NCBI GenBank assembly: GCA_963788855.1
Contig: CAWBIE010000001.1
Coordinates: forward strand, 89,437 to 153,436
Origin: an uncultured Verrucomicrobiae bacterium
Lineage (GTDB): Bacteria > Verrucomicrobiota > Verrucomicrobiia > Chthoniobacterales > UBA10450
Length of the DNA: 64,000 bases
Reading direction: 5' to 3'
Shown here: piece after piece, positions 9,272-60,819 of the stretch
Layout of the letters: each line of letters starts with the position of its first letter
Numbering within the stretch: the stretch's first letter is position 1
Translations under genes and position numbers: made by a program
Notes under the pieces: model-generated
Seen by the model: the letters and a program-made list of their open reading frames with translations, nothing else
What the model was told of the DNA's origin: nothing
Database searches by the model: none

Positions 9272-9372
9272 GGATGCGTTAAGAACGTGGAATCGTTAAA
9301 ATGCCGGGAACCTGAACCATTTGCTGTGCGTAAAACCGATCGCAGGCCAAGAGCCACAGATCACACTTCCTG

Positions 9373-10788: not shown

Positions 10789-10830
10789 CGTGCGATTGCA
10801 CGCCGGGCGCCGCGCTCTAAATTCGCAGCT

Positions 10831-19048: not shown

Positions 19049-19245
19049 AGTCGAATTTGAGAGGGCGCCAGAGGCACCAAACAGATAACAGGCCGCCTCC
19101 TGCAAACCGCTCGCCCGCTGGTTGACGCAGGCATGCCTCGGGGGCATATTTCGCGCTCATTCAGATTGCAGGGCAGGCGGTCGCCGCGGCGGCCGTGCCG
19201 CGCCAAGGACGGCGATCCACTGCCCCGCAACTGCAAGGACCTCTC

Positions 19246-47188: not shown

Positions 47189-47578
47189 GCCGTTACAAGA
47201 GCACTAAATGAGGAGAACAAGCGACCTTATTTTTACATAGGATTGCCCCCATTTATCCATGATAGACTGTGGACGCCGCCAATCAACCTCAGTTCGGTGA
47301 GACCGGAGCTCTCCGGTAACAAGATAGGGGTTGCGCTTAATGAGCGGGTTCGAATTTGGTAAGAAAGCAAGCCGCATCGTCCGATCGCGCGCCGATCCCG
47401 GCTTTGTTCGTTTAATCAACTTCCCAGCAGGCGAGTCCGTCGAGTGTCGATTGAATGCGCAGGCCGTGAAATTGTTCTTCGACAAGACGAAGATCGTCTG
47501 TAGTGGAGATCCCGACGAGCGGCGGAGCCGGTGGGCTTTGCTGTATTTGATCGAGCGTAAGATTCACCAAGTGAGACC

Positions 47579-47914
47579 TTAGGTCGCCGTAGAAGAGATA
47601 AAACTCCTCTGGCAGCATATGGGCCAAATCCGGAGAGCGAGTTCAGCATTCTTAAGCCGCGGAAGTGTCAACGCACTAAGCCAATACTGTAATGGTGGCT
47701 TGATCCCGGTGAGTTGAAAATTGTCGTGCACGGACCATGGACTCAACAAGAGCATTTCGCGCGAACGCTCTGCCGTGAGGAATTCAGCGTCCCCGCCTAG
47801 GAGGGTGCGATGACTTTCAAAGCCGAGCCAGCCAAAGATACAAATCGTCATCAGAGTGGCCGCTGCAATCGACCTCACAGGCGAAGGAGCGTTATCTCTC
47901 ATGGTTGACGTCAT
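47579..47914 (-). pseudogene. N-terminal fragment of an ArnT/PMT-like (GT-C) glycosyltransferase; truncated
   Basis: TM1, then GGDAEFLTAERSREMLLL...TGIKPPLQYWLSALTL...ELALRIWP is the typical first loop of GT39/GT83 enzymes. Only ~110 aa are present, and just ~390 nt of unassignable sequence remain before the next gene. Confidence 0.45.
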
Positions 47915-49702
47915 TTAATCTTTCTCGACTGCGTCTTTCGCCAGTGGCGAGAAAGGCGAAAAACCCTTTTCAGGAGCAACTGACCAAATCACAGCAAGGC
48001 GGTCGGTATCCGTGAGACTCCGGATTTCGTGGTGCCCGGCCGGGAGGTAGCGGGGACCGTCAAATGGCGTCCCATCGAGAAAAGCCACGAGGTTCCCGCG
48101 CTCGGGGAGAAGTTCGTAATTCGCAGGAATCACAATATCGAACTCATATTTTTTCGGAAATTCCTGATCGGACGTGCTGAGCATCTTTCCCAGGACCCGA
48201 ATGCGGAACGCAACCGGGAGGTAATTCTGCTCGATAAAACTGCGCGCCCGTGACGGCATTCGAAGGACTGTTGCGACTGGTGCCCGCGTCGCAATCAGGT
48301 GCTCAGGAATTTCGTCCTTAATCAGGCCGAGTTCGAGACGGCGCAGGGTCACTCCCTCCAACACATAGTAAAACGGTCTGCGCCGAAAAATCGTCTCACC
48401 TTTGGCGTCCATCACGAAATCGCTCTTTGACGTCAGAATCTGGACGTTTGCAATCATTGTGATGGTGTCACGCAAGGCACGGGGGCGCAGTGGATAGAAA
48501 AGGAGCAGCGCGACAATTTCCCCGCCAGCGACGAGTGGGAGCGCGATCGATCGGAAACGATAATCCTGGCAACAATTGACAGATTCCAACAGTGTCCAAG
48601 TCGCAGAGACAACAAGTAGAAACACCAGTGGAACAATTGGGAGAACGTCGTGCGGTTCGACGAGTGGCCAAAGAACACCGAGTAACATGCAGAACGCAAT
48701 GGAAGTTAGCGCGATCAAGGCGATCCGATCTCGCTTGGTCGCTTCAATCGCGTTGCGCCAGCTCAAATAGCCACCAACACATGCCAGAGCTGTTAAAGGA
48801 ACCAGCAATAGCACTCGTTTCGCCAGGTCCGGCCGAAACAAGCCCGGCACAACGTTGTGCTGGATTACACAGTAGTAGAGACTCGGCAGCGCCTCTTTGC
48901 GGGCAAAGAAAGCGACGACAAGTGCGGGGATGAGGAGGGCACCAAAAAGAGCCGCGGTCGCAAGGGTCATGAGGCGTTTCCAATCGAGGCCCGTTTTGCC
49001 AATGGCTTTCGAAGCAAGAATGACAATCAACGCAACGCTCAGCGATATTACCAGGGCACTCGTCTTCATTGAAGTAGCGAAGCTCGCCCCGAGGGCTAAT
49101 CCGGTGAGAAAAGCGTTCCTCAATTCAAGGGGCCGTTTGACCAGGGCCAGGACCGACAACAGCCAGAGCAGCGCCCAAAGGTCATCCGTGCGAAACTCTG
49201 TGGACTTGACAAAAAATATTGGGTAGGCGCCGGTGAGAACGGCAGTCCAGATTCCAATGCGCCGCGAGAAAAGAATCGTTCCGCACCTATAGATACACCA
49301 CAGGCACAGAAAATAGAGGGGGACCATCGCCAGGCGCATCGCAATGACGATGTCGGCCCGTTCACCCAGCGCCCGAAAAAGGGGGACACAAAGAACTTGA
49401 AAAAGCGGCGAATGATTGTCGAAAAAGTCGCGATATGGAATGAAGCCATTCGCCCAGCCCCAGACTACGTGAAGGTGTTGAGTTTCATCGGAGTCGATAC
49501 GGAGAGTGAATACGCAAACAAGTTTCAACGCTGCGAGAAGCGTGAGAAAAAAGATCGCGATGGCTCCCTCAAATCTCGCAAAGAATCCCAGGATTCGCTG
49601 CGGGACTAAATTGGCGGAATTGTCCATTGCCTGATCCACATTTTCATCGCTTTCCACGGTGCTTGTTTTCGGACGCTGGATGGGAACTCCGCGGGATTCC
49701 AA
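47915..49702 (-). CDS. Polytopic membrane glycosyltransferase-like protein (GT-C fold suspected)
   Basis: Intact 595-aa ORF. First loop RIDSDETQHLHVVWGWANGFIPYRDFFDNHSPLF with an acidic DxDE-like motif, about 10 TM helices, C-terminal soluble domain. Family assignment is tentative. Confidence 0.45.
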   Translation of the reverse strand: MESRGVPIQRPKTSTVESDENVDQAMDNSANLVPQRILGFFARFEGAIAIFFLTLLAALKLVCVFTLRIDSDETQHLHVVWGWANGFIPYRDFFDNHSPLFQVLCVPLFRALGERADIVIAMRLAMVPLYFLCLWCIYRCGTILFSRRIGIWTAVLTGAYPIFFVKSTEFRTDDLWALLWLLSVLALVKRPLELRNAFLTGLALGASFATSMKTSALVISLSVALIVILASKAIGKTGLDWKRLMTLATAALFGALLIPALVVAFFARKEALPSLYYCVIQHNVVPGLFRPDLAKRVLLLVPLTALACVGGYLSWRNAIEATKRDRIALIALTSIAFCMLLGVLWPLVEPHDVLPIVPLVFLLVVSATWTLLESVNCCQDYRFRSIALPLVAGGEIVALLLFYPLRPRALRDTITMIANVQILTSKSDFVMDAKGETIFRRRPFYYVLEGVTLRRLELGLIKDEIPEHLIATRAPVATVLRMPSRARSFIEQNYLPVAFRIRVLGKMLSTSDQEFPKKYEFDIVIPANYELLPERGNLVAFLDGTPFDGPRYLPAGHHEIRSLTDTDRLAVIWSVAPEKGFSPFSPLAKDAVEKD

Positions 49703-49795: not shown

Positions 49796-51442
49796 ATGCA
49801 CGCCGCTTTTTATCAGTCTGAACTTGATCAGCCGCACCCGAACCGTGCGCGCGCTATCATAAGTGCGCATCCGGAGGTTCGGCAGTTAATGGTGAGAAAC
49901 CCATACACTGCGCTCATCGCTCTGTCGGTCGTGGTTCTGCAAACATCAATCGCGTATCTGATGGGCAGATTAGGATTCAGTTATTGGTGGCTCAGTATGT
50001 TGGTCGCCTACTGCGTGGGCGCCTTCGCCAATCACTGCAATTACGTCATTATCCACGACGCGACCCATAACCTGATTCTTCGCAGCAAGAGCTGGAACAA
50101 AATAGTGGGAATCATGGCCGATCTTCCCAACCTCACGGCCGGTGCGATGGGCTTTCGTGTTTACCATCTCAAGCACCATTCGCATCAGGGGAATTACGAA
50201 TGGGACGCTGATTTGGCCAACCATTGGGAGGCACGGCTCGTCGGCAATAAATGGTATCGCAAAGCGATCTGGCTGATGCTCTTCCCGTTCTTCCAGCTAA
50301 CGCGCCCGCCGCGTCTGAAGGCGATCACGATGTGGGATCGATGGTTTCTGATCAATCTCGTCTGGGCGGCGGCTTACGATGTGGCGGTGGTTTATTTTTG
50401 CGGATGGGCCGGGCTGCTTTACCTGGTTTTTTCGTTTTTCTTTTCCATCGGCCTTCATCCGGTAGGTGCCCGCTGGATCCAGGAGCATTACACCAACGAT
50501 CCGGAGCAGGAGACCTACAGCTACTACGGGCCGATCAACTTCCTGGCCCTGAACATGGGTTATCATAACGAGCACCACGATCTGCCTTCGATTCCATGGA
50601 ATAATCTGCCGAAACTGCGGGCAATGGCGCCGGAATTTTACGATAATCTGAAGTATCACTCATCCTGGAGCCGGCTCCTTTTCCAGTTCATTTTCGATCC
50701 GCGTTACACGTTGTTCTCGCGAATCGAGCGCGCCAAAGAGAGAAAGGACGGCTCGTCTTATGTCGCGACCGGAAGAGTAGACCGGACAGGGCCGGTCGCT
50801 TTGCCGCCGAAGCGACCAGCCTTTAGCCCCATGGAACAACTCTACGTCTCGAACAAAAACGAAACGGTCCGCATGTTTGAGAGCGACTTCATGGAATTCT
50901 GCTCCCACGTGCATCCGGCCACACCCGTGATCTTGTACATGCCGGTCGTTGGCTACATGCTTTACGCCTCTTTTGCGCACAAGAAATTGTCGATCCTGGC
51001 GGTGGCGGGGTTATTTGTGATCGGGGTGCTGATCTGGACGCTTCTCGAGTACATCATACACCGCCACGTTTTTCATTATGAACCAAAGAGCCGGTGGGGA
51101 AAAAAACTGCACTTTATTGTCCACGGCGTGCACCATGATTATCCGAATGATGCCACCCGGCTGGTCATGCCACCTAGTGTGAGCATTCCGCTGGCGATTG
51201 TATTCTGGGTGCTTTTTGCCGCGACACTGGGCCGGTTCGCGCCGGCCGTCTCCGCCGGATTTGGATTTGGCTACGTCTGTTACGACAGTATTCATTACGC
51301 GACGCACCACTTTGCTATGAAGCGAGGGGTTGGGCTCTGGCTGAAACAGTATCATCTTCGCCATCATTATAAGGACGATGAGGCGGGTTATGGGGTCAGC
51401 TCCCCTCTCTGGGATTACATTTTCCGGACCACCCGCAAGTAG
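49796..51442 (+). CDS. Fusion protein: sphingolipid Delta4-desaturase (DEGS1/DES1-like) N-terminal domain + fatty acid 2-hydroxylase (FA2H/Scs7-like) C-terminal domain
   Basis: Residues 1-~320 align by eye with human DEGS1, with His boxes [15 protein letters not shown] and [34 protein letters not shown] (human: [30 protein letters not shown]). Residues ~345-548 align with the FA2H catalytic domain: [63 protein letters not shown]. A single uninterrupted 548-aa ORF. Confidence 0.85.
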   Translation: [548 protein letters not shown]

Positions 51443-51686
51443 GGCCTGATCTGGCAAAATCCGAACGAACTCGGGCAAGACTGGCCCCACTAAAATCTTG
51501 TGGGGCGTCGTAGAATCGCTACAGTAGTTGCCCCGACATGGGACTCTATCGCGCGCGGCCCTGGAAGCCCCGGCGGGAGAGCCTACCCATAAGGTAATTA
51601 CCAATTCCTCGAAATATTATGAGCAGCCATGTGCTTGTGAACGAACAACATCTTATTGCCGGGGGCGGCATCACGGGCGCGTGGCG

Positions 51687-52940
51687 ATGAACCAGGATCC
51701 CTTCAAACTTAGCCTCGGTAACTTTCTCGCCGCCGGCGAAAGTTCCAACCCTCTTCAAGCCCCGGCCAGCTTCACAAATTGGGTTCGCGAAAGCGCGTGG
51801 GCCCGCGAGTTCTACGAGCCGGAGTTACTCGGTACGGCGGACGCGCGCACAACCGTCACCTACGACGGCAAACCCTGCTCCGTCATCAACCTCTGTTCCT
51901 ACAATTATCTTGGCCTGGCCAATCACCCGGAAGTGCTGGCCGCGGCCCAGGAGGCCCTGAAGACGCACGGTCTGGGGGCGTGCGGCGCACCCATTCTTTC
52001 CGGCATGACCGATCTGCATCGGGAGCTGGAGCGGCGCGTTGCCGAATTTCTTGGCCGCGAGGATGCCATGCTTTTCAATAGCGGATTCGGCGGCGCGCTC
52101 GGTACGATTTCCGGAATGCTGCGCAAGTCCGATGTGGCGATTCTCGATAACCGCTCGCACCTCAGCTTGCGCGATGGCGCCGTCCTGTCGCGCTGTCGCA
52201 CGGAGAAGTTTGAGCATAACGATCCCGCTTCACTCGACACCGCGCTGCGCCGGCAGCAAGGCCGGCGTCAGCTTGTCATCATGGAGGGCATCTATTCCAT
52301 GGACGGCGACTTCGGTAATCTGGAAGAGCTGATCGAGGTGGCCGAGTCTCACGGCGCCAGGACCTTTATCGATGAAGCGCATTCGATGCTGGCCTGCGGT
52401 GAAAATGGTCGCGGCGCTGCCGAGAAATTCGGCGTAGAAGATCGGATTCCGCTCGTCTACGGCACGTTTTCCAAAGCCTTTGCTGCGCTCGGTGGATTTG
52501 TGGCGGGCCCGAAGGAAACGCTCGAATACCTGCGCTTTTACGCGCATCCGTATGTTTATTCCTGCGCGCTGCCACCGGTGGTGATTGCTGGAATTATCAA
52601 AGCGCTCGAGATCGGCATTCGGGAGCCGGAATTGCGAACGCAACTTTGGGAAAACGCCGAATACTTCCACACCCAACTGCGGGGTCTTGGTATCGATACG
52701 GGTGCTTCGACGACCTACGTCATGCCGATCGTCATTGGAGAGCGCGAGCGCATGTACCGGCTGTGCCACGAATTGCGCCGGCGCGGTTTGTGGGTTGCCC
52801 CGGTCGATTATCCGGCCGTGCCCTTGAGTCGCGTCTGCTTCCGCGCCTGTGTCACGGCCAAGCATACGCGGGCGGATCTCGACGAAGCGCTGAACATTCT
52901 CGAAGACACACTCGTCCCGGCGATGCTGCAAAGCGCCTGA
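51687..52940 (+). CDS. Alpha-oxoamine synthase family PLP enzyme, candidate serine palmitoyltransferase
   Basis: ATG 51687. NLCSYNYLGLANHPEV, FNSGFGGALG, DNRSHLSLRDG, EGIYSMDGD, FIDEAHSMLACGENGRG and the PLP-lysine context YGTFSKAFAALGGFVAG. The SPT assignment rests on genomic context (adjacent DEGS/FA2H homologue) plus the presence of a separate kbl in this window. Confidence 0.7.
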   Translation: MNQDPFKLSLGNFLAAGESSNPLQAPASFTNWVRESAWAREFYEPELLGTADARTTVTYDGKPCSVINLCSYNYLGLANHPEVLAAAQEALKTHGLGACGAPILSGMTDLHRELERRVAEFLGREDAMLFNSGFGGALGTISGMLRKSDVAILDNRSHLSLRDGAVLSRCRTEKFEHNDPASLDTALRRQQGRRQLVIMEGIYSMDGDFGNLEELIEVAESHGARTFIDEAHSMLACGENGRGAAEKFGVEDRIPLVYGTFSKAFAALGGFVAGPKETLEYLRFYAHPYVYSCALPPVVIAGIIKALEIGIREPELRTQLWENAEYFHTQLRGLGIDTGASTTYVMPIVIGERERMYRLCHELRRRGLWVAPVDYPAVPLSRVCFRACVTAKHTRADLDEALNILEDTLVPAMLQSA

Positions 52941-52961
52941 GACGGGTTCGATTGCGATTTA

Positions 52962-53888
52962 ATGCCCGAACCCATCGAGCCGACGCTTTCGCCTCTGGAA
53001 GCGACTTACAAGACGCGCGACGTCGAAGGCATCCTCGATCTCTATTTTTATCGGAAGCTCGCTTTTAAACTGGCGACCCTTTTCGCGAGACTAAAGATTA
53101 CGCCGACGGCGGTGACAGTTTTCGGCGGGTTCCTCGGAATCCTGGCCGGGCATCTTTATTTCTATTCCGATCTCTTCACAAACATCGTGGGAATGGTCCT
53201 CCATGTTTGCGCAAATACGCTCGATAATGTCGACGGTCAGCTGGCCCGTTTGCTCAATCAAAAAAGCAGGTCTGGCCGGGTAATCGACAGTCTGTTCGAT
53301 CATTTGATATTTCTGAGCATTTACGTGCATCTCACCCTGCGCTGCCTGGTCGCGGGAGCCTCGCCCGCGGTCTGTCTGCTCGCCCTGGCCGCCGGTCTCA
53401 GCCATGCGCTGCAGGGCGCGGCCGCGGACTATTATCGCAACGGCTATTTGTACTTTGTGAAGGGCCAGGCGGGCGCGGACTGGGATTCCTCCGATTCCCT
53501 TCGAGCCGAGTATCGGCAACTGAGCTGGTGGGCGGAACCGTGGAACAAATTCCTGCTCGCGTCCTATCTCAACTTTACCTGGCAACAGGAATGGCTCTCG
53601 CCGGCGTTGAAACGTTTGCGCGATCTCACCGTGCGCACTTTCCCGGGCGAGATACCAGGGTCGTTGCGGCAGCATTATCGGGAGACAGCCCAGCCGATGC
53701 TCCGATGGTGGGGATTACTCATGACCAACACGCGCATGCTGTTTCTCTTCTTCTTTTTGATCATCGATCGGCCGGCCTGGTTTTTTTGGCTGGAGCTAAG
53801 CGTGTTCAATCTCCTGCTCGGCCATCTGATTCTGCGGCAGGAAAAAATGTCGCTTCTTCTGTGCAAAGACGTGACCGAGGCGGCCTGA
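52962..53888 (+). CDS. CDP-alcohol phosphatidyltransferase family membrane enzyme
   Basis: Perfect family signature D(x)2DG(x)2AR(x)8G(x)3D(x)3D in LDNVDGQLARLLNQKSRSGRVIDSLFDHL. Multiple TM helices. Confidence 0.8.
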   Translation: MPEPIEPTLSPLEATYKTRDVEGILDLYFYRKLAFKLATLFARLKITPTAVTVFGGFLGILAGHLYFYSDLFTNIVGMVLHVCANTLDNVDGQLARLLNQKSRSGRVIDSLFDHLIFLSIYVHLTLRCLVAGASPAVCLLALAAGLSHALQGAAADYYRNGYLYFVKGQAGADWDSSDSLRAEYRQLSWWAEPWNKFLLASYLNFTWQQEWLSPALKRLRDLTVRTFPGEIPGSLRQHYRETAQPMLRWWGLLMTNTRMLFLFFFLIIDRPAWFFWLELSVFNLLLGHLILRQEKMSLLLCKDVTEAA

Positions 53889-53913
53889 GGTCATATAAGT
53901 TTGCTCCAATCTC

Positions 53914-55047
53914 GTGTCGCAAATTGAAATCTCAGAAGTCAGGTCGCGTCGGGACCGCGATGCTTTCATTAAATTTCCGTGGCGCATTTACAAGGATGAT
54001 CCCGCCTGGGTTCCCCCTTTAATCATCGAGCGCAAAGCCTTTCTCGATCGAAAGCGGCATCCGTTTTACGAGCACGGCGATGCGGCTTTGTTTCTGGCGC
54101 GACAGAATGGCGAAATCGTCGGCCGAATCATGGCGAGCGACGATCCGAATTACAACGCGCTTCATCAGTCGAACGTTGGCTGTTTTGGACTATTCGAGTG
54201 CATCGATAACCTCGAGGTGGCGGCCGCGCTCCTGCAGGCGGCCATGGATTGGGTAGGAAAGAAAGGACGCGAGGAAATCATGGGGCCGATCGATTATTCG
54301 ACCAACTATGTTTGTGCGTTGCTCATCGACGGGTTTCAATATCCGCCGACCCTTCTGACATCGCACAACCCGCCCTATTACGCGAAATTGCTCGAAGGCT
54401 GTGGCCTGGCCAAAGTGAAAGACTGGTACGCGTGGTGGTTTTCCGAATATACGGAACCGGCCGAGCGACTTCGAAAAATTGCGATGGCCCGCGCGAGCAA
54501 ACAGGGCGTCTCGATTCGACCGATCAATTTGAAGGATGTCGAGGGCGAGAGTCAGCGAATCCGGGCGATTTACAATCAGGCCTGGGAGAAGAACTGGGGG
54601 TTCGTGCCGTTCACAGAATCTGAAATTCTACATATGGCCAAGGAGATGAAGCCGCTGATTGTTCCGCAGGGAACTTTGCTGGCGGAGATAGCAGGCGAGC
54701 CAGTCGCGTTTGTCATCGCCGTTCCCGACATTCATGTTGCTTTTCGACGAATCAACGGGCGATTGACGTGGTTCGGACTTCCGATTGGCTTACTCAAGCT
54801 TCTCTATTATCGAACGAAGATTCGCACCGGGCGGTTGGTCGCGCTCGGAGTGGTGGAGAAGTATCGCCGCGCTGCCATCGCTGAGATGCTCGTGCTGCAT
54901 CTGATGGACGCGGCGTTCAAGCGCGGATTCACCGGCGAACTCAGTATGACTCTTGAAGACAATGTCATGATCAATAGTTTCATTGAATCGATGGGCGCGG
55001 CCAGATACAAGACTTACCGCATTTACCGGAAAGTTATCAAGGAGTGA
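53914..55047 (+). CDS. GNAT-like (double acyl-CoA N-acyltransferase fold) protein, candidate N-acyltransferase
   Basis: Intact 377-aa ORF (GTG start). N-terminal FIKFPWRIYKDDPAWVPPL...GRIMASDDPNYN...GCFGLFE and C-terminal NQAWEKNWGFVPFTESE...GEPVAFVIAVPD...GVVEKYRRAAIAEML resemble proteins usually annotated as N-acetyltransferases. Recognised from memory only. Confidence 0.45.
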   Translation: MSQIEISEVRSRRDRDAFIKFPWRIYKDDPAWVPPLIIERKAFLDRKRHPFYEHGDAALFLARQNGEIVGRIMASDDPNYNALHQSNVGCFGLFECIDNLEVAAALLQAAMDWVGKKGREEIMGPIDYSTNYVCALLIDGFQYPPTLLTSHNPPYYAKLLEGCGLAKVKDWYAWWFSEYTEPAERLRKIAMARASKQGVSIRPINLKDVEGESQRIRAIYNQAWEKNWGFVPFTESEILHMAKEMKPLIVPQGTLLAEIAGEPVAFVIAVPDIHVAFRRINGRLTWFGLPIGLLKLLYYRTKIRTGRLVALGVVEKYRRAAIAEMLVLHLMDAAFKRGFTGELSMTLEDNVMINSFIESMGAARYKTYRIYRKVIKE

Positions 55048-55070
55048 CGGCTTCCTCAGCGGTCCGGGTT

Positions 55071-56402
55071 TCATTCGGCCCCGACAGCTTTTGGGGTCGC
55101 TCGTTGGATTTGCGATCCCTTGCGCAGCTGGCAAAACACCCAAATCGCACGGGGCAAATGCAAGGCCGCCGTGGCCAGGACTAACCAAGGCATGATGATG
55201 AAAGCTTGGGCTGTCGCCCCGAAGAGAAATCCAATCGTTAGCATCCAGACCATGACATTGCGCCGTCCGCCAATGAGATGCACGAGTCGTTCGAATGTCC
55301 CCAGTTCCTCGATCGATCTGCCGGTCGCGAAACGAACGCCGGATTTCAGGATTCCATCGACCCCTTGGGCCAAAAGGAGCAAGGTGAGGTAACGAAAAGC
55401 GCCGGGTACTTGCCCGGAGTTATGCAAATAATAGGCAAGAGCAATCCACCATGAGATTTCGAAAAATGCATCGAACCAATGCTCCAGTTTTCCGTGCTTG
55501 GTTGTCTCGACTTTGACGCGCGCCTGTTTTCCATCGAGACCGTCGAGAACGCCGACGATTAAGGCGAGGGTGAGGCCCCAACCGAGCCGGCCAGTAGCCA
55601 AAAGAATCGTCGCGCTCCAAGCGACGACGTTGGTAAGAATCGTCAACTGGTTAGGTGTGATCGAAGTTTCGCAGAGGTGGGAAACAAGAAATGTCTCGAT
55701 CGGGCCATGAATGATCGCGGGAAGGTCGAGCGTGCCCTTTTGAGCTGAATCGAGAAGGACCCATTTGGCCAGCTTCGCGCGCTCTGGCGTTGGGGCCGGG
55801 AACCAATAGGCTCTTAGCTTTCGGTTGAGCGGCGCATAATACAGAGGTTCGGTGGCCACATCCGCCGCCGCCAGCGTTTGGTCCTCCAAACCTGTGCGCA
55901 AGACATCTGGCAGGGATCCCGTGCGAGAGCGGGCCCAGTCGCGTCGCAGGAACGCCGGTCCGCAAAGCTTGCCGCGTTTTGTTGGAGGTGCAGAAGCAAC
56001 CAGCGAGGAACGTCGAGCCGGCACAGCGGAATCCACCAGCGCGGCCGGCTCGTCGTACGAAAGAAACATCCGCAAGAGCCGCTGATCTAACACTGAATTA
56101 GCGGGAAGAATGAGCAGAAGTTCAACGCTGTCTGGCCAGAGATCGGCAATGTGTTCCATCGTCACAGGGCCGACCGGTCGCACGCAGATTGTCAAATCGA
56201 GTTCGGCGCGCGCCCATGATGGTCTGGCCAACTCTTGCGCGATCCGTTCGGGAGTGCTTGACAAAACAATCGCCCGTTTGAATCCGCATCGCTGGAGTGT
56301 GCGTAATAAGCGTTCAAGTATCGAGATTCCGCACAATTTGATTAACGCGCTCGGACTGTCCGCCAGAACCACGCATTGCTCAGTCATTGTTTCTGGTCGC
56401 AA
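55071..56402 (-). CDS. Fusion of a degenerate nucleotidyltransferase-like domain with a CDP-alcohol phosphotransferase membrane domain (IPCT/DIPPS-like architecture)
   Basis: N-terminus VVLADSPSALIKLCGISILERLLRTLQRCGFKRAIVL has the layout of an NTP-transferase fold but lacks the GxGxR loop. The C-terminal TM region carries LDGLDGKQARVKVETTKHGKLEHWFDAFFE, a variant of the CDP-OH-P transferase motif. Confidence 0.65.
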   Translation of the reverse strand: MRPETMTEQCVVLADSPSALIKLCGISILERLLRTLQRCGFKRAIVLSSTPERIAQELARPSWARAELDLTICVRPVGPVTMEHIADLWPDSVELLLILPANSVLDQRLLRMFLSYDEPAALVDSAVPARRSSLVASAPPTKRGKLCGPAFLRRDWARSRTGSLPDVLRTGLEDQTLAAADVATEPLYYAPLNRKLRAYWFPAPTPERAKLAKWVLLDSAQKGTLDLPAIIHGPIETFLVSHLCETSITPNQLTILTNVVAWSATILLATGRLGWGLTLALIVGVLDGLDGKQARVKVETTKHGKLEHWFDAFFEISWWIALAYYLHNSGQVPGAFRYLTLLLLAQGVDGILKSGVRFATGRSIEELGTFERLVHLIGGRRNVMVWMLTIGFLFGATAQAFIIMPWLVLATAALHLPRAIWVFCQLRKGSQIQRATPKAVGAE

Positions 56403-57111
56403 TCAATTTCCGGGCATGTTCCAGCGTCTCGGCCGAATCGACATCCTGCCACCATGCGTTGCCGATATCGATCGCCCGAACTTTTCCATCAGCGGCCATC
56501 AATCGGACACCATCGGCCAGACTGCAATCTCCATCGCGTTTCGCTTTCTCCAGACATGCGAAAATCTCCGGCGAACAAACAAACAAGCCGGTATCGATTG
56601 CGTCGTAGTCTTCGAGGTTTTTGCCGATCGCAACGAGCCGGTCTTTGCGCGTCTGGACTTTCATTGCGTCATCTAAATCGAAAATGCAATCAAGTTTTCG
56701 GTCGACCGCGAGAGTCAGTTCATTGGCGTTGGAGCTTCTCAGGAGAAGATCGACAATCGAGTCTTCAAAAATATGGTCGCCCATTGTCAGGATAAATGGT
56801 GCATTCACGCTAGGGGCCGCTGCCAGCACAGAAATGCCATTTTGTTTCTGCCACTCCGGGTTTTCGATCCAAAATAAATTCATGCCAGTAGGAATCAGTG
56901 GCATTATTCCCGCCCGCAGCGAATCGCTCTCGAATCCAATGACAGCGTGAATCGTTTCGATGCCTGCCTTGGCGAGGGTGTCCAAAGTGTAAGAAATGAG
57001 AGGCCGCCCGCTCAGAGAGATGAGCGGTTTGGGCGAATTCTCGCCACTGCGCCGCAGCCGCGAGCCCGATCCGGCCATAAGAATGACCGCGTTAGAGATC
57101 GGCTTCTTCAT
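56380..57111 (-). CDS. Nucleotidyltransferase (sugar/alcohol-phosphate cytidylyltransferase-like)
   Basis: AVILMAGSGSRLRRSGENSPKPLISLSGRPLISYTLDTL is the canonical NTP-transferase N-terminus. 243 aa. The 23-nt overlap with the downstream fusion gene suggests coupling. Confidence 0.75.
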   Translation of the reverse strand: MKKPISNAVILMAGSGSRLRRSGENSPKPLISLSGRPLISYTLDTLAKAGIETIHAVIGFESDSLRAGIMPLIPTGMNLFWIENPEWQKQNGISVLAAAPSVNAPFILTMGDHIFEDSIVDLLLRSSNANELTLAVDRKLDCIFDLDDAMKVQTRKDRLVAIGKNLEDYDAIDTGLFVCSPEIFACLEKAKRDGDCSLADGVRLMAADGKVRAIDIGNAWWQDVDSAETLEHARKLIATRNND

Positions 57112-57485
57112 ATTCCGTAATATCTCTTCAAGTTCGAGAGACGGGCAGTTGTGGCAGAACTGCGCGTGGTGAGCGGTTGCGCGATTGCGTCTGATCCCGG
57201 AGCTGCCCCGGTGACCCGCTTTTTCGTCGGATTATGGCATCGTGAGTTAAAGATTGTCTACGACGCTGCACTAGTCAGTTTCCCGGATGGCTGTGGCTTC
57301 ATGGCCATTGACGTTACCCGTGTGTCACTCTCGGCAGTTTCGTTCCAAATCTCCGGATCTGACACGCGTTTCAGGCTGTGCCGTTGAACGCGGGGGAATC
57401 ATAGCCTTTAAGGTCGTGGCCCGCTTGAGAGTCGTCTGAAAGGAATTCTGCTGGCAAGTTCCCGCGGAATGAATCTCTTCATGTC

Positions 57486-58525
57486 GTGAAGTCGCGGATC
57501 GTTCGGGAGATTGAAAACATTCGGGTCGGCAGAACCAACATCGACCGTCGGCAATTGGTGATAAGCCGGATCATGACGATATTGGTCGGAACTTTAACGG
57601 CGATCGGTCAGTTTGCCTACTCGTCGTTATGGGGACGACGGCAAGCACGATTCATTCGGCAGCTTTTGTCCCACGCTCCCTCGACCCCGAAAGGCCGCGT
57701 GATTGCTTCGTTTTCAACCTTGCCGGATCGAATCAATAATCTCGAGCCAACACTTCGTTCTCTCCTTGAGCAAACACGGCCGCCGGATGAAATCGTCCTG
57801 GCCGTCCCCCAGTTTTCGATCCGTCAACAAAAAAGAGTACGTCGTCCCTAACTATCTCGAGCAAATTCCGCGTCTCCGCATTTTGCGCTGCTCAAACGGA
57901 CTGGGGACCGGCGACGAAATTCATTCCAGTTATTCAAGAGGAGCTGGCCGCCGGTCGCGGTGACACGTTGATTATGGTCCTGGATGACGACCGAGTCTAC
58001 CCGCGGGATGCACTCGAAACGTATCTGCACTACCACGCACGATTGCCGGAGGCCGCGCTTTGTTTTCGCGGTGCACTGATGCCCGACAATTTCGTTTGGT
58101 TTTTACCCAAACTGTTTCCTGCCAACCAAATTCGCGAGCCGAGACGTGTGGCCGTGATCACGGGTACCGCAAGTTATCTTATCCAACCGCGCTTCTTCGA
58201 CTCTGCGCTCTGGGATTACTCCACTTCGCCAGCGAGCGCGTTTTACGTCGACGACATCTGGATTAGCGGTTGCCTGGATCGGCGTGGCATCGAAAAATAT
58301 GTCGTGCCCGCATCCGCCATGATGCGAACCGTCCGAAAGCAATGGGGCACGATGACCCTGTACGATGTGCCAAAGGGCTCCGTGCGGAGCAATACCGAGG
58401 CGATCAAGTTTTTTCGCGATACATGGAATATTTTCTCGTGGCCGTTTGGTCTTGATTATCGACTGCGCGCTCTTCTTCTAGTGTGGCCGGGAACATGGCG
58501 CGCGCGACGAAATAAGCTTTTATAG
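57486..58525 (+). pseudogene. GT-A fold glycosyltransferase (DxD type); two frameshifts as given
   Basis: VIASFSTLPDRINNLEPTLRSLLEQTRPPDEIVLAVP / KEYVVPNYLEQIPRLRILRCSN / DWGPATKFIPVIQEE...LIMVLDDDRVYP...YVDDIWISGC is read across ORFs 57486, 57703 and 57968, with shifts near 57830 (A6 run) and 57898. Confidence 0.6.
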
Positions 58526-59323
58526 TCCGTAGTATTGCTTAAGGCCCCAGATGCGCACTCGCTGCGGGAGTAACCGGAAGATAACGGGCGCGAATTTGGA
58601 TTGGAATCTATCGCCGACTGTCAGGCGCGGCGAGGGATTGACCTGATCGATTAACGCGCAGACGCGTTGGGCAACGAGGTCAGGCCTTGGTGCCCCCTTC
58701 ATGTTGCGTTCGACTGCAGCCCAAACTCTCGCCACCTTAGCGTCATATCGCGGATCTTTTGACGAGCCTTTGCTAATGGCGTCATTAAAGGAGGTGTTAA
58801 TATCCGCCGGTTGCAGGTCGACAATGCGCACGCCTGTATTAGGCAACTCGAGCTGGATCGACATGGTGAAGACCGCCATGGCTGCCTTTGCCGAGTTGTA
58901 GGCTGCCATGAAGGGTACCGGCAAGCGCGAAGCCAGCGAGGTGACGTTGATGATGAGACCCTGTTCTCGCGATCGCATCGCGTGTAGCGCCAGGCGCATT
59001 AAGTGCAGCTGTCCGAATACCAGGACTTGGAATTGATTTTCGATTTCTTCGTCGGAGAGATTTTCCGCTGGTCCAAAATGGCCGCTGCCACCGTTGTTAA
59101 TCAAGACATCGAAGTGGTCAGCTTCTGCGAGCGCGGCGTTGAACGCGTGGTCGATCAAAGCGGCATCGCCGAGATCAAGTCGCACCGGGTGTAGTCGATC
59201 CAACTTTGCCATTCGGCTCGGATCGCGCGATGTTCCCCAGACTTCATCCCCACGGCCGGTTAGCGATCTTGCGATGGCAAGGCCAATGCCGGAACTCGCG
59301 CCAGTGAGAAAAATTCGCTTCAT
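58520..59323 (-). CDS. Short-chain dehydrogenase/reductase (SDR)
   Basis: IFLTGASSGIGLAIA (TGxxxGxG), LINNGG, and the catalytic YNSAKAA (YxxxK). 4-nt overlap with the upstream GT-C-like gene. Confidence 0.85.
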   Translation of the reverse strand: MKRIFLTGASSGIGLAIARSLTGRGDEVWGTSRDPSRMAKLDRLHPVRLDLGDAALIDHAFNAALAEADHFDVLINNGGSGHFGPAENLSDEEIENQFQVLVFGQLHLMRLALHAMRSREQGLIINVTSLASRLPVPFMAAYNSAKAAMAVFTMSIQLELPNTGVRIVDLQPADINTSFNDAISKGSSKDPRYDAKVARVWAAVERNMKGAPRPDLVAQRVCALIDQVNPSPRLTVGDRFQSKFAPVIFRLLPQRVRIWGLKQYYGL

Positions 59324-60819
59324 GAGGTCTGTCCACGATCAATCAAGAACAATCGTAAGAAGTGGTGCTTCACATAGATGACGGGCGAACGGCTGAAGTC
59401 CGCCAAGGGCAAGCGGCGCCAGCCCTCGGGCAAGCGGAAATTTTCATCGTCCGTATAGACCGCGGCGGCGCCTTTTGTCATCTCCCGCAATATATCAGGC
59501 GGCGGGATATGAAGAATGGTGATGAACTCCGGAGCATACCACTCAGCGTGACGCCCAGTGTGGGGGAAGAGGAGTGCGACGTGGCTCCGGGCCGAGCTCG
59601 GATAAAGTCTTTCGAGATACCGAACCAATCGGATAGGAGGCGCCTCCTCGCGATGATTAGTGATTGCTAGGGGGATCGTTATGAAAAGGAGCAAGGCTGG
59701 CAGGGCCAGCGTGCTCCAATCCCAGGGTGCCGGCAGGCGCAAGAACCCGCGCAGCAATGCGATCAGAATAAGAGGAAAAATAATGAGGTAATATCGCTCG
59801 GCGCCATCGAGACAGATGAAAATGGTCGCGAAGTGCAGCAATGCCCAAGGCGCGTGAAAGCTCCAGAAGAGCCGGTCTTCGGCTTCCCGAGGCCGAGATA
59901 AGTAAGCGGCCAATCCGAAAATCACCATCACTGTCCCGACTGCGAGAGCAATCGGCGATTGAAGAAAACCGAAGCCGAGAGCAAACCAAAAAAGAGTATG
60001 TTCACCGAGGCGCATGGCGAGATAATGCAGGCTCCAATCGCCCGCGCCGATGTAAACGTGCGGTTTATCCAACCGCCATTGCCATTGTCCATAAAGGAGT
60101 TTTGGATAGACCAGCCATGCTGGAGCCGACGGTCTGAGGCGCGCTTGCAGATACCACATCGGCACAAGCCAGAGCAGGCATGCCGCGAGCAACGTGCTGA
60201 GGCTAGAGAGCCACGCCTTCCAGGGCGATGACCTTTGCCTCAACGCCGTGACAAGAATGACAGCGACAACGAGAATCAGTTGCGGGCGCGTTCCGGCAGC
60301 CGCGGCGCCAAGCAGAGATGCGGCCAGCAAAGCCCGCCGGCGTCCACTCCGCAAAAAGCAAAGCGCCGCGAAAATTTCGGCGCTGAGAAATCCGGTGGCG
60401 AGACTATCGCTGAGGACTTTTGTGGCCGTCATCCACACGGCGGGTGTGATGGTAAGACAGACGGCTATCCAGCAGGCGAGTCGCTCATTGAATTGCAACC
60501 GGATAATAAGAAACCACATGGCGACAAAAAGCGCGCCGCCGAGGCTGGAAACGAGGTGGAGAGAATCCTCCGGGCTGGCGCCAAATTCGTGGCCGATCCA
60601 ACCGAAAAAGATAAACAATGGATATCCGGGGGGGTGCGGTTGGTGTTCCCAAATATTGAAATTGCGAACCCCCATCGCGAACTGCACCGAATCGTATTCA
60701 TCGAGTCCCGGAGAACGTGAGATAAAATAGAGGGAGAAAGCGATGACAAAAATCAGCGCGGTCTTCAGCGAGGCGCGCGAATCAAGCCAATCCGGCGCGG
60801 TCATTTTCACTTTCAGCAT
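59320..60819 (-). CDS. DUF2723-like/GT-C polytopic membrane glycosyltransferase
   Basis: Intact 499-aa ORF. First loop SPGLDEYDSVQFAMGVRNFNIWEHQPHPPGYPLFIFFGWIG resembles the HPPGYPL signature also seen in 40220-42046. About 11 TM helices. Confidence 0.55.
   Translation of the reverse strand: MLKVKMTAPDWLDSRASLKTALIFVIAFSLYFISRSPGLDEYDSVQFAMGVRNFNIWEHQPHPPGYPLFIFFGWIGHEFGASPEDSLHLVSSLGGALFVAMWFLIIRLQFNERLACWIAVCLTITPAVWMTATKVLSDSLATGFLSAEIFAALCFLRSGRRRALLAASLLGAAAAGTRPQLILVVAVILVTALRQRSSPWKAWLSSLSTLLAACLLWLVPMWYLQARLRPSAPAWLVYPKLLYGQWQWRLDKPHVYIGAGDWSLHYLAMRLGEHTLFWFALGFGFLQSPIALAVGTVMVIFGLAAYLSRPREAEDRLFWSFHAPWALLHFATIFICLDGAERYYLIIFPLILIALLRGFLRLPAPWDWSTLALPALLLFITIPLAITNHREEAPPIRLVRYLERLYPSSARSHVALLFPHTGRHAEWYAPEFITILHIPPPDILREMTKGAAAVYTDDENFRLPEGWRRLPLADFSRSPVIYVKHHFLRLFLIDRGQTS

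What the first reader, a model, noticed from the sequence alone, without database searches (positions are those of the whole stretch)
49796..59323. Candidate eukaryote-style phosphosphingolipid pathway
About 9.5 kb holds these genes: a DEGS1-like desaturase fused to an FA2H-like hydroxylase (49796-51442); an alpha-oxoamine synthase (51687-52940); a canonical CDP-alcohol phosphotransferase (52962-53888); a 377-aa GNAT-like protein (53914-55047); a pseudo-NTP-transferase/CDP-alcohol phosphotransferase fusion (55071-56402); a cytidylyltransferase (56380-57111); a GT-A glycosyltransferase; and an SDR (58520-59323). In eukaryotes, DEGS1 acts on dihydroceramide and FA2H makes the 2-hydroxy acyl chains of ceramides. 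Their homologues next to an AOS argue that the AOS is a serine palmitoyltransferase. The window already has a genuine kbl at 3459-4648, so this is not the threonine-pathway copy. The predicted product is a desaturated, 2-hydroxylated ceramide carrying a CDP-alcohol-derived phospho-headgroup. As far as I recall, the gene set differs from the Caulobacter-type bacterial ceramide pathway: I see no ACP, acyl-ACP synthetase or NDUFA9-like reductase. The only reductase candidate is a classical SDR, the fold of the eukaryotic 3-ketosphinganine reductase.
Basis: partly seen in the sequence, partly recalled or inferred. Interest (0 to 1): 0.86.

Follow-up and report, generated by a model that had tools for sequence, protein, structure and literature searches.

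The report
Verrucomicrobial phospho-sphingolipid gene cluster
An uncultured soil bacterium (Chthoniobacterales, relatives of the very abundant Udaeobacter) carries a conserved gene cluster predicted to make desaturated, hydroxylated phospho-ceramides, built on the bacterial ceramide synthase but with eukaryote-like tailoring enzymes and an archaeal-style head-group module.

Summary

The 377-aa "GNAT-like" protein belongs to the bacterial ceramide synthase (bCerS) family. So this is a bacterial-type Spt+bCerS pathway, not a eukaryote-style one.

What differs from the Caulobacter, Myxococcus and Streptomyces clusters:
- No CerR or ACP was detected in the window; a classical SDR (KdsR-like) is conserved instead.
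- A DEGS-type desaturase and an Scs7/FA2H-type hydroxylase are present.
- The head-group module is an IPCT-like cytidylyltransferase plus two CDP-alcohol phosphotransferases. One has an IPCT/DIPPS (AF2299-like) two-domain fold with a degenerate N-domain.

The core is syntenic in about 25 Chthoniobacterales/Udaeobacter MAGs.

Corrections:
- The desaturase–hydroxylase "fusion" comes from a 1-nt deletion unique to this contig; relatives have two genes.
- kbl, bipA and the GT-A gene are also frameshifted, so assembly error is the likely cause.
- The AOS has no SPT-specific sequence signal and its deep phylogeny is unresolved. Its SPT assignment rests on context.
- Inositol as the head group is inferred; no MIPS gene is in the window.

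Verdict: a new variant of a known kind, of moderate interest.

The parts
49796..50826 (+). Sphingolipid delta4-desaturase (DEGS-type) gene. In this contig its stop codon is bypassed by a 1-nt deletion, so the ORF runs on to 51442.
   Evidence: Pfam Lipid_DES 32.1 bits (cut-off 23) and FA_desaturase 94.9 bits. His boxes HDATHN, HLKHH and HNEHH are seen in the sequence. Orthologues are separate 342-343 aa proteins. Junction comparison.
50831..51442 (+). Fatty-acyl 2-hydroxylase (Scs7/FA2H-type catalytic domain, without a cytochrome b5 domain).
   Evidence: Pfam FA_hydroxylase 67.5 bits. PDB Scs7p 4ZR1, 117 bits, E 9.5e-33. It is a separate 203-205 aa gene in relatives. Homologues lie near Spt-bCerS-CerR in some Myxococcota-like MAGs.
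51687..52940 (+). Alpha-oxoamine synthase; a serine palmitoyltransferase-like candidate, assigned by context.
   Evidence: Aminotran_1_2 181.6 bits. Best PDB hit is Sphingobacterium SPT at 256.6 bits, against E. coli Kbl at 243.7. NCBIfam models do not discriminate. The Verrucomicrobial clade is 100% monophyletic and not with Kbl or BioF, but its deep placement is unresolved. It sits in the same syntenic cluster as bCerS, one CDP1 gene apart, in about 24 loci.
52962..53888 (+). CDP-alcohol phosphotransferase 1 (canonical motif), encoded between the AOS and bCerS.
   Evidence: Pfam CDP-OH_P_transf 44.3 bits. Motif D88NVDGQLARx8Gx3Dx3D. Conserved at 43-76% identity in nearly all cluster variants. 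NCBIfam nearest models are AIPS, DIPPS and PIPS.
53914..55047 (+). Bacterial ceramide synthase (bCerS-family GNAT N-acyltransferase).
   Evidence: Acetyltransf_1. 37%, 41% and 38% identity over 97-99% of its length to the bCerS-position proteins of Roseomonas, Streptomyces and Rubrobacter. The family is linked to an AOS (and to CerR outside Verrucomicrobiota) across phyla.
55071..56402 (-). CDP-alcohol phosphotransferase 2: a degenerate nucleotidyltransferase N-domain plus a DIPPS/AF2299-like membrane domain. The source annotation starts at 56387 (438 aa).
   Evidence: Pfam. PDB 4MND and 4O6M by sequence. AF2 model pLDDT 78.8; Foldseek gives 4MND E 1.6e-12 and AF2299 TMt 0.77, with the N-domain matching RmlA, MurU and GMPPB. 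Conserved variant motif DGLDGKQARx8GxxEHxxD. Natural NTP-CDP2 fusions in relatives.
56380..57111 (-). Cytidylyltransferase, IPCT-like (predicted CDP-inositol or other CDP-alcohol synthase). It overlaps the start of CDP2.
   Evidence: NTP_transf_3. NCBIfam IPCT/DIPPS N-half 130.8 bits, against 77.8 or less for other families. PDB IPCTs 4JD0, 2XME and 4MND score 80-83 bits; the next hit scores 41.8. No similarity to the CpgD-position NTP of Roseomonas.
57486..58525 (+). GT-A-like glycosyltransferase, disrupted here by two frameshifts (about 57830-57838 and about 57893-57900).
   Evidence: Three reading frames match the intact 296-aa L002 orthologue. The orthologue is present in at least 10 related clusters.
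58520..59323 (-). Classical SDR; candidate 3-ketosphinganine (or oxo-ceramide) reductase replacing CerR.
   Evidence: adh_short 137.6 bits. NCBIfam KdsR NF049977 158.6 bits, E 1.9e-46, full length but below the 400 cut-off. GxxxGxG and YxxxK motifs are in the sequence. Conserved at 58-75% identity in about 20 loci. CerR is absent.
59320..60819 (-). GT-C (PMT_2/ArnT-like) membrane glycosyltransferase; accessory, likely head-group glycosylation.
   Evidence: Pfam PMT_2 36.2 bits. Orthologues at 57-64% identity sit next to the cluster in several loci.
60958..62343 (+). Polytopic membrane protein with 10 or more hydrophobic segments and no Pfam hit; a possible flippase. Assignment tentative.
   Evidence: No Pfam hit. 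Hydropathy. Relatives carry a Polysacc_synt/MatE-type gene next to the SDR instead.
46061..49702 (-). Upstream divergent genes: PIG-L family deacetylase (46061-47188), two small ORFs, and a second PMT_2 GT-C (47915-49702). Possible accessory head-group modification; weakly conserved.
   Evidence: Pfam PIG-L 80.4 bits and PMT_2 29.8 bits. Homologues lie upstream of the cluster only in L004, at 35-36% identity.

Best explanation
This is the sphingolipid biosynthesis cluster of an uncultured Chthoniobacterales (Verrucomicrobiota) soil bacterium. It is built on the bacterial Spt+bCerS core.

Proposed route (all steps inferred, none assayed):
1. The AOS condenses serine with a long-chain acyl thioester to give 3-ketosphinganine.
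2. The SDR (in place of CerR) and bCerS reduce and N-acylate it to dihydroceramide. The order of these two steps is unknown.
3. The DEGS-type di-iron enzyme desaturates (or hydroxylates) C4 of the long-chain base. The Scs7/FA2H-type enzyme 2-hydroxylates the amide-linked acyl chain.
4. The IPCT-like cytidylyltransferase makes a CDP-alcohol, most likely CDP-inositol.
5. The two CDP-alcohol phosphotransferases move the phospho-alcohol onto the ceramide 1-OH, and possibly add a second unit onto the first head group. This would be analogous to DIPP synthase or to Caulobacter CPG->CPG2.
6. GT-A and GT-C glycosyltransferases and a flippase/exporter decorate and export the lipid.

Shown here: gene content, domain families, the CDP2 fold, synteny, and membership of the GNAT in the bCerS family. 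Inferred: every substrate and the head-group identity.
For: bCerS family membership and its linkage to an AOS across phyla.

Cluster order DES-FAH-AOS-CDP1-bCerS-CDP2/alt-NTP-SDR is conserved in about 25 MAG loci.

DEGS-specific Lipid_DES domain above the Pfam cut-off. Scs7p match at E 1e-32.

CDP1 is encoded between the AOS and bCerS with intergenic gaps of about 20-25 nt.

The NTP is closest to solved IPCTs, at 80-83 bits against 42 for the next family, and to the IPCT half of NF041135 at 130.8 bits.

CDP2 has the IPCT-DIPPS/AF2299 fold. It is naturally fused to the NTP in relatives: P0319, 16 member sequences from three sources.

There is a precedent for a cytidylyltransferase plus CDP-alcohol transferase head-group logic in bacterial sphingolipids: CpgD/CC_1159 in Caulobacter (PMC13228409, PMC11324152). 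A CDP-inositol route has also been proposed in Bacteroidetes (PMC9246714).

A phospho-head group needs the serine-derived 1-OH, which argues for serine as the AOS substrate (inference).
Against: The AOS shows no SPT-specific signal. NCBIfam bioF/gly_Cac_T_rel score about 331-333 against SPT models at 311-313, all below cut-offs. The 'Kbl+BioF versus the rest' split has only 18% NJ bootstrap support.

The SDR sits in the head-group operon (with NTP and the flippase), not with Spt/bCerS. It is only the second-best NCBIfam match to KdsR, at 158.6 bits against a cut-off of 400.

No myo-inositol-1-phosphate synthase is in the window or in L001/L002.

NCBIfam AIPS/PIPS/DIPPS hits of similar size also occur for the Roseomonas CDP-OH transferase at the position of Caulobacter CC_1159. 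If that enzyme uses CDP-glycerate, as proposed for CC_1159, those hits are not diagnostic of inositol.

CDP2 has Glu in place of the third motif Asp.

No lipid data exist for any organism carrying this cluster, and all carriers found are MAGs.
Confidence: 0.7

Rival explanations
1. One reading: a eukaryote-style pathway (SPT -> KDSR-type SDR -> ceramide synthase -> DEGS/FA2H) that is independent of the Caulobacter-type bacterial pathway, perhaps acquired from eukaryotes.
For: DEGS and Scs7/FA2H homologues are present. A classical SDR stands in place of CerR, and no ACP was detected.
Against: The acyltransferase in the operon is a bCerS-family protein, not a Lag1/TLC CerS. No TLC or AUR1/PAP2 domain was found in any scanned ORF. 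Head-group transfer from a CDP-alcohol is not the eukaryotic IPC or sphingomyelin route. The FA2H-type hydroxylase lacks the cytochrome b5 domain.
Confidence: 0.07
2. The cluster makes a phospho-ceramide, but the head group is not inositol. The NTP would activate another phospho-alcohol (glycerol-P, phosphoglycerate, ethanolamine-P or a sugar phosphate).
For: Identity to IPCTs is only about 30%. No MIPS gene is nearby. Caulobacter uses CDP-glycerate with the same enzyme logic (PMC13228409). The Roseomonas CDP-OH transferase at the CC_1159 position gives comparable AIPS/PIPS/DIPPS hits.
Against: The NTP scores twice as high against IPCTs as against any other nucleotidyltransferase with a solved structure, and against NF041135 compared with other NCBIfam models. 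It shows no similarity to the CpgD-position NTP of Roseomonas. CDP2 and CDP2alt are closest to DIPPS.
Confidence: 0.3
3. The AOS is not an SPT. The cluster would make a different N-acylated amino-lipid, for example one derived from cysteate, glycine or alanine (sulfonolipid-like or 1-deoxy bases).
For: No SPT-specific profile signal, and unresolved phylogeny. Cysteate acyltransferase is also a significant PDB hit, at 205 bits.
Against: The DEGS and FA2H families act on ceramides. bCerS linkage points the same way. Two phosphotransferases in the same operons need a free hydroxyl acceptor, which 1-deoxy or sulfonate bases lack. SPT is the top PDB hit.
Confidence: 0.1
4. Two unrelated functions lie side by side: ceramide synthesis on the + strand, and on the - strand a di-inositol-phosphate-like solute, phosphatidylinositol or capsule pathway.
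For: The NTP, CDP2 and SDR genes are on the opposite strand, next to glycosyltransferase and flippase genes. IPCT/DIPPS is known for solute synthesis.
Against: CDP1 is inside the Spt-bCerS operon, so a CDP-alcohol donor is needed there. The two halves stay together in about 20 genomes even though the flanking genes vary.
Confidence: 0.1

Closest known systems
Bacterial ceramide pathway Spt-bCerS-CerR (Caulobacter crescentus; also Myxococcota and Streptomyces) with CpgA-D head-group genes
   Same: It has an Spt-like AOS in the same syntenic cluster as a bCerS-family GNAT (one CDP1 gene apart). It also has a cytidylyltransferase plus CDP-alcohol phosphotransferase for a phospho-head group. CDP2 is 28% identical over 59% of the Roseomonas CDP-OH transferase. 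Glycosyltransferase and export genes are nearby.
   Different: No CerR, AcpR or ceramide kinase homologue was detected by tblastn; AasR was not searched for with a query. An SDR is present instead. The NTP is IPCT-like, not CpgD-like. DEGS and FA2H homologues are added. The AOS is a separate, divergent lineage (35-40% identity to SPTs).
Bacteroides sphingolipid/inositol-lipid pathway (Spt, KdsR BT_0972, PI-DHC via BT_1522/1523; proposed alternative NTP + CDP-alcohol transferase cluster)
   Same: A classical SDR of the KdsR type is the candidate reductase (PMC9278070). The proposed CDP-inositol route uses an NTP transferase and a CDP-alcohol phosphotransferase (PMC9246714).
   Different: There is no AUR1-like or HAD-type IPC synthase and no MIPS in the cluster. 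Here the genes are clustered with Spt and bCerS, whereas in Bacteroidota they are dispersed. The SDR is below the KdsR equivalog cut-off.
Eukaryotic ceramide tailoring enzymes DEGS1/Des1 and FA2H/Scs7p
   Same: Same families and His-box motifs. Lipid_DES N-domain is present. Scs7p catalytic domain matches at E 1e-32. About 36% identity to a human DEGS1 sequence recalled from memory and not verified.
   Different: No cytochrome b5 domain on the hydroxylase. The electron donor is unknown. The genes sit in an operon with bacterial-type enzymes.
Archaeal/thermophile IPCT-DIPPS (A. fulgidus AF0263, PDB 4MND) and AF2299
   Same: The NTP is closest to IPCT. CDP2 has the same two-domain fold (Foldseek E 1.6e-12; AF2299 TMt 0.77). 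Natural NTP-CDP2 fusions in relatives recreate the bifunctional layout.
   Different: The N-domain of CDP2 lacks the GxGxR nucleotide loop. The third motif Asp is Glu. The predicted acceptor is a lipid (ceramide or its head group), not soluble inositol-1-phosphate. Sequence identity is about 16-30%.

Membership tests
bCerS (bacterial ceramide synthase) | Full-length homology to the GNAT protein encoded in experimentally defined or typical Spt-bCerS-CerR clusters | tested here: met
   37%, 41% and 38% identity over 97-99% of length to the Roseomonas (Caulobacter-type cluster), Streptomyces and Rubrobacter proteins. The Caulobacter sequence itself was not available.
bCerS (bacterial ceramide synthase) | Genomic linkage to an Spt-like AOS | tested here: met
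   The AOS lies within about 1.5 kb in most of the 80 loci from many phyla, and in the window.
bCerS (bacterial ceramide synthase) | N-acylation of 3-ketosphinganine or sphinganine | not testable with these tools
   Needs an enzyme assay or complementation of a bcerS mutant.
Serine palmitoyltransferase | AOS fold with a PLP-binding lysine | tested here: met
   Aminotran_1_2 181.6 bits. The TFSK motif aligns to the SPT lysine.
Serine palmitoyltransferase | Passes a curated SPT equivalog model | tested here: not met
   NF047600 313.5 against a cut-off of 640; NF047599 311.1 against 500; NF047603 253.8 against 670. BioF and Kbl models score as high or higher.
Serine palmitoyltransferase | Clusters phylogenetically with characterised SPTs rather than with Kbl or BioF | tested here: inconclusive
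   NJ tree: groups with Kbl in 6% of bootstraps and with Kbl+BioF in 3%. The split separating Kbl+BioF from all SPT-context sequences has only 18% support.
CerR (NDUFA9-like ceramide reductase) | A homologue present in the cluster | tested here: not met
   tblastn with Streptomyces and Rubrobacter CerR finds nothing in the window. In Verrucomicrobial loci it finds only 25-30% identical epimerases 6-10 kb away. CerR is present next to bCerS in Myxococcota and other loci.
KdsR (3-ketodihydrosphingosine reductase, BT_0972 type) | Passes NCBIfam NF049977; SDR catalytic motifs present | tested here: inconclusive
   158.6 bits (E 1.9e-46, full length) against a cut-off of 400. It is the second-best hit, after the generic PRK06179. 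GxxxGxG and YxxxK are present.
DEGS (sphingolipid delta4-desaturase/C4-hydroxylase) | Lipid_DES N-terminal domain plus FA_desaturase with three His boxes | tested here: met
   PF08557 32.1 bits against 23; PF00487 94.9 against 29.7. The motifs are in the sequence. Lipid_DES is also on record for the orthologues.
FA2H/Scs7p | FA_hydroxylase catalytic domain homologous to Scs7p | tested here: met
   PF04116 67.5 bits. 4ZR1 117 bits, E 9.5e-33.
FA2H/Scs7p | N-terminal cytochrome b5 domain | tested here: not met
   The 203-aa gene has the catalytic domain only. No Cyt-b5 Pfam hit.
IPCT (CTP:inositol-1-phosphate cytidylyltransferase) | Closest relatives are characterised IPCTs; passes the curated model | tested here: inconclusive
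   The best PDB hits are IPCTs (80-83 bits, next 41.8). NF041135 scores 130.8 bits over its IPCT half, against a whole-protein cut-off of 580 for the bifunctional model. Substrate not testable here.
CDP-alcohol phosphotransferase, DIPPS/AF2299 type (CDP2) | Two-domain fold (cytosolic nucleotidyltransferase-like domain plus 6-TM CDP-AP domain) | tested here: met
   Foldseek: 4MND E 1.6e-12 over 459 columns; AF2299 TMt 0.77; the N-domain matches RmlA, MurU and GMPPB at E about 1e-6.
CDP-alcohol phosphotransferase, DIPPS/AF2299 type (CDP2) | Signature Dx2DGx2ARx8Gx3Dx3D | tested here: not met
   The third Asp is Glu, with one residue fewer before it (D287..D290G..AR..G304..E307..D311). The variant is conserved in all orthologues. 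CDP1 has the canonical signature.
Eukaryotic sphingolipid pathway | Lag1/TLC ceramide synthase and PAP2-type (AUR1/SMS) head-group transferase | tested here: not met
   No such Pfam domains were found in any ORF scanned across the window.

The most novel reading that the evidence does not exclude
Udaeobacter-type soil Verrucomicrobiota make inositol-phosphoceramides by a route not known in any organism: direct transfer of inositol phosphate from CDP-inositol to ceramide by a CDP-alcohol phosphotransferase. A DIPPS-like second enzyme would then add a further phospho-inositol. Together with the glycosyltransferases, this would give lipids convergent on fungal/plant (G)IPC and M(IP)2C, carrying delta4-unsaturated bases and 2-hydroxy acyl chains made by bacterial DEGS and FA2H homologues.
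Probability: 0.3. Interest if true: 0.75.

Novelty: new variant of a known kind. Interest (0 to 1): 0.55.

Why it matters
Udaeobacter and its relatives are among the most abundant soil bacteria, and none of the carriers found here is cultured.

If the prediction holds:
- A large fraction of 'fungal/plant-like' soil sphingolipids (unsaturated, 2-hydroxylated, possibly inositol-phosphoryl) could be bacterial. That would affect lipid biomarker interpretation.
- The bacterial ceramide pathway would be shown to be modular, with CerR replaceable by an SDR.
- It would supply bacterial DEGS and FA2H homologues, useful for asking where the eukaryotic tailoring enzymes came from.
- It would give a testable candidate for a CDP-alcohol-dependent phosphoceramide synthase.

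The cluster is compact enough for heterologous expression.

Tried and rejected
- Retrieving the Caulobacter bCerS paper and sequences (Stankeviciute 2022) failed; the paper is not held. I used Streptomyces, Rubrobacter and Roseomonas cluster proteins from PLSDB instead.
- The look-up of encoding contigs for window proteins found no record, so the source record name is unknown.
- A 25-sequence GNAT alignment was too divergent for the genome scan. An 8-sequence one worked.
- BLASTP of the CDP2 N-domain against the NTP found nothing. hhalign gave only a weak colinear match, E 0.006 and probability 6%. Structure prediction settled the question.
- Bootstrapping with Biopython's calculator timed out. 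I redid it with Kimura distances.
- DES has no homologue in PLSDB plasmids and no solved structure. The SDR has no PDB hit at E 1e-25 or better.
- The promoter/terminator scan was no better than shuffles.
- Literature searches found no description of sphingolipids or this cluster in Udaeobacter/Chthoniobacterales, no bacterial DEGS, and no CDP-inositol:ceramide transferase.
- Rejected: the NTP as a CpgD orthologue (no similarity).
- Rejected: the fusion as a conserved feature.
- Rejected: the AOS as the Kbl copy (kbl is at 3470-4648).

Full report
**Observation.**
Three of them (55071-56402, 56380-57111, 58520-59323) are on the minus strand.

Pfam supports every domain call:
- 49796-51442: Lipid_DES + FA_desaturase + FA_hydroxylase.
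- 51687-52940: Aminotran_1_2.
- 52962-53888: CDP-OH_P_transf, with a canonical Dx2DGx2ARx8Gx3Dx3D motif.
- 53914-55047: GNAT.
- 55071-56402: CDP-OH_P_transf in the C-terminal half.
- 56380-57111: NTP_transf_3.
- 58520-59323: adh_short.

The window's other AOS (3470-4648) is a genuine kbl. It is 66% identical to E. coli Kbl, and its N-terminal 301 aa alone score 517 bits against a cut-off of 460.

**Two corrections to the observation.**
First, the desaturase-hydroxylase 'fusion' is specific to this contig. In the 90%-identity cluster of this protein, and in loci L001 and L002, the desaturase (342-343 aa) and the hydroxylase (203-205 aa) are separate genes 3-4 nt apart. The window lacks one base about 20 nt upstream of the ancestral TAG (50824-50826). 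Translation therefore slips into the hydroxylase frame. The hydroxylase's ATG at 50831 is intact.

Second, the GT-A gene (57486-58525) is split over three frames relative to the intact 296-aa orthologue.

kbl (two frameshifts) and the conserved GTPase gene bipA/typA (at least three) are broken as well. Close relatives come from Flye-style 'contig_' long-read MAGs. I therefore regard these as probable assembly indels, not biology. Read mapping would decide.

**Source.**
Homologues at 65-86% identity are soil MAGs labelled Verrucomicrobiota, Chthoniobacterales, Spartobacteria or Candidatus Udaeobacter. No cultured organism was found among the close relatives.

**What the GNAT is.**
The 377-aa protein belongs to a large family of about 375-aa proteins: 1377 representatives at E<1e-30 in the 50%-identity library.

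In a scan of one genome per species, its relatives outside Verrucomicrobiota share 41-53% identity with it. They occur in Myxococcus, Corallococcus, Archangium, Pyxidicoccus, Pirellulales, Zixibacteria, Calditrichota, Gemmatimonadota, Cytophagia and others. In these loci the gene lies about 1.5 kb downstream of an AOS, and is usually followed by an NAD-dependent epimerase-family gene.

On annotated replicons the same arrangement appears as AOS-GNAT-epimerase operons in Streptomyces and Rubrobacter. It also appears inside a Caulobacter-type cluster in Roseomonas mucosa, which holds ACP-Spt, a DAG-kinase-family gene, a CDP-alcohol transferase, LptF/G paralogues and an NTP transferase. That cluster matches the Caulobacter gene set described in PMC11324152 and PMC13228409.

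The window protein is 41%, 38% and 37% identical to these three over 97-99% of its length. The Roseomonas Spt passes the curated SPT model at 612.7 bits against 500, and scores 400 bits to S. wittichii SPT. The GNAT is therefore a bCerS-family enzyme, and the pathway core is bacterial, not eukaryotic.

**What differs from the known bacterial pathway.**
CerR and ACP homologues are absent from the window and from the Verrucomicrobial loci (tblastn at 1e-5). CerR is present next to bCerS in most non-Verrucomicrobial loci. No acyl-ACP synthetase domain turned up in the Pfam scans, but I ran no AasR query.

A classical SDR is conserved instead, at 58-75% identity in about 20 loci. Its second-best NCBIfam hit is the Bacteroides-type 3-ketodihydrosphingosine reductase KdsR: 158.6 bits, E 1.9e-46, full length, but below the 400 cut-off (compare PMC9278070). 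It lies in the head-group operon, so its role is inferred.

The desaturase carries the DEGS-specific Lipid_DES domain above the Pfam cut-off. The hydroxylase matches the yeast Scs7p catalytic domain at E 1e-32 and lacks cytochrome b5. DES was found only in the Verrucomicrobial loci. FAH homologues also occur beside Spt-bCerS-CerR in a few Myxococcota-like MAGs.

**The AOS.**
Its best PDB hit is Sphingobacterium SPT (256.6 bits), but E. coli Kbl is close behind (243.7). NCBIfam SPT, BioF and Kbl models all score 311-333 bits and all fall below their cut-offs. By contrast, the bCerS-linked AOS of Archangium clearly prefers the SPT model (510 against 395).

I built an NJ tree with bCerS-linked AOSs, two crystallised SPTs, Kbl and BioF. 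The Verrucomicrobial AOSs form a clade with 100% support. That clade joins Kbl in 6% of bootstraps and Kbl+BioF in 3%. The deep split has only 18% support.

The SPT assignment rests on three things: its conserved place in the cluster with bCerS (separated only by CDP1), the ceramide-specific tailoring enzymes, and the need of the phosphotransferases for a 1-OH acceptor.

**Head-group module.**
The NTP is closest to inositol-1-phosphate cytidylyltransferases. PDB entries 4JD0, 2XME and 4MND score 80-83 bits, and the next family scores 41.8. The IPCT half of NF041135 scores 130.8 bits. The NTP shows no similarity to the NTP that occupies the CpgD position in Roseomonas.

The AlphaFold model of CDP2 (pLDDT 78.8) matches IPCT-DIPPS 4MND over both domains (E 1.6e-12) and AF2299 (TMt 0.77). 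Its N-domain matches sugar nucleotidyltransferases. The nucleotide-binding GxGxR loop is missing, and the third motif Asp is a conserved Glu.

In some relatives the NTP and CDP2 are fused into one 675-678 aa protein. One such cluster holds 16 member sequences from three sources. This is a Rosetta-stone link between the two.

Most related clusters carry a different, plus-strand, DIPPS-like transferase in place of CDP2, only 28% identical to it. The second transferase is thus the variable part, while CDP1 is constant.

Inositol is the best guess for the head group, but the evidence is limited. No MIPS gene is nearby. The Roseomonas CDP-OH transferase at the position of Caulobacter CC_1159, for which CDP-glycerate use has been proposed, gives similar AIPS/PIPS/DIPPS hits.

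**Surroundings.**
Around the core lie GT-A, GT-C (PMT_2) and GT4 glycosyltransferases, a PIG-L deacetylase and a polytopic membrane protein. Relatives add a Polysacc_synt/MatE flippase, MacB-type ABC and OEP exporter genes, and sometimes a radical SAM gene. This is consistent with a glycosylated, exported outer-membrane lipid.

**Comparison and novelty.**
Bacterial sphingolipid synthesis via Spt-bCerS-CerR is known. Spt-like genes have been noted in Verrucomicrobiota MAGs (PMC11334938). A cytidylyltransferase/CDP-alcohol head-group logic is known from Caulobacter (PMC13228409, PMC11324152), and a CDP-inositol route has been proposed in Bacteroidetes (PMC9246714).

I found no description of this particular combination in the searchable literature. 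The combination is bCerS without CerR, a KdsR-like SDR, DEGS plus FA2H homologues, and an IPCT/DIPPS-type module. It is a new variant of a known kind. It is interesting mainly because of the abundance of the host lineage and because it can be tested directly.

Noticed in passing
window 3470-4648 (kbl), 19195-21061 (bipA/typA), 57486-58525 (GT-A), about 50805: Several conserved genes are split across reading frames: kbl in 3 frames, bipA with at least 3 shifts, GT-A with 2 shifts. This points to an indel-rich (probably long-read) assembly. Any single-ORF 'fusion' or 'pseudogene' in this contig needs read-level confirmation.
   Followed up: partly
P0319 (675 aa), P0311 (678 aa); window 56380-56402 overlap: In some relatives the IPCT-like NTP and CDP2 are one polypeptide (NTP - degenerate NTP domain - CDP-alcohol transferase). 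In the window the two genes overlap by 8-23 nt.
   Followed up: yes
L001:11173-12327, L002:11146-12351 and most Verrucomicrobial loci: Most related clusters replace the minus-strand CDP2 with a different plus-strand DIPPS-like CDP-alcohol transferase (28% identical to CDP2; NF041135 73.9 bits). This suggests head-group diversification between lineages.
   Followed up: partly
L002:12414-13364, L005, L014: A radical SAM gene lies between the second CDP-alcohol transferase and the NTP in some clusters. Its weak best hit is the tetraether lipid synthase Tes (70 bits). It is absent from the window.
   Followed up: no
window 46061-47188 and 47915-49702; 40220-42046: A PIG-L family deacetylase (the family that includes GlcNAc-PI and GlcNAc-inositol deacetylases) and three GT-C (PMT_2/TMEM260-like) glycosyltransferases flank the cluster. 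If the head group is inositol, this would fit a GlcN-inositol motif. The arrangement is conserved only in L004.
   Followed up: partly
window 27696-28571 (-), 28636-30039, 30783-32072: A DAGK_cat/YegS-type lipid kinase lies next to an AsmA-like gene and the Kdo transferase gene. It belongs to the same kinase superfamily as the Caulobacter ceramide kinase, but it is 22 kb from the cluster and shows no tblastn similarity to the Roseomonas DAG-kinase-family gene.
   Followed up: partly
L063 (CAVXUM010000003.1, labelled Candidatus Eremiobacteraeota): It carries DES-FAH-AOS-CDP1-bCerS at 60-84% identity to the window. Either the contig is mis-binned or the cluster was transferred recently.
   Followed up: no
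H2 (Pseudomonas veronii plasmid, 'yghO'): The bCerS-family protein is annotated YghO in gammaproteobacterial records and 'dATP pyrophosphohydrolase' in Roseomonas. These names hide ceramide-synthase homologues in public annotation.
   Followed up: no
L087 (Bacteroides ovatus conjugative plasmid) and about 12 similar plasmids: Small conjugative Bacteroides/Phocaeicola plasmids carry a lone AOS next to a TetR regulator. In the NJ tree it falls near the Verrucomicrobial AOS clade. Function unknown.
   Followed up: no
L007, L009, L011, L018, L023: Cluster variants exist. Some lack DES/FAH although upstream sequence is available (L009, L011, L018, L023). L007 has no NTP or SDR within 10 kb downstream. 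The tailoring and head-group modules are therefore separable.
   Followed up: partly
window 7025-12771: cdsA, dxr, rseP and ispG (gcpE) form a contiguous block of phospholipid and MEP-pathway genes. This is ordinary and unrelated to the finding.
   Followed up: no
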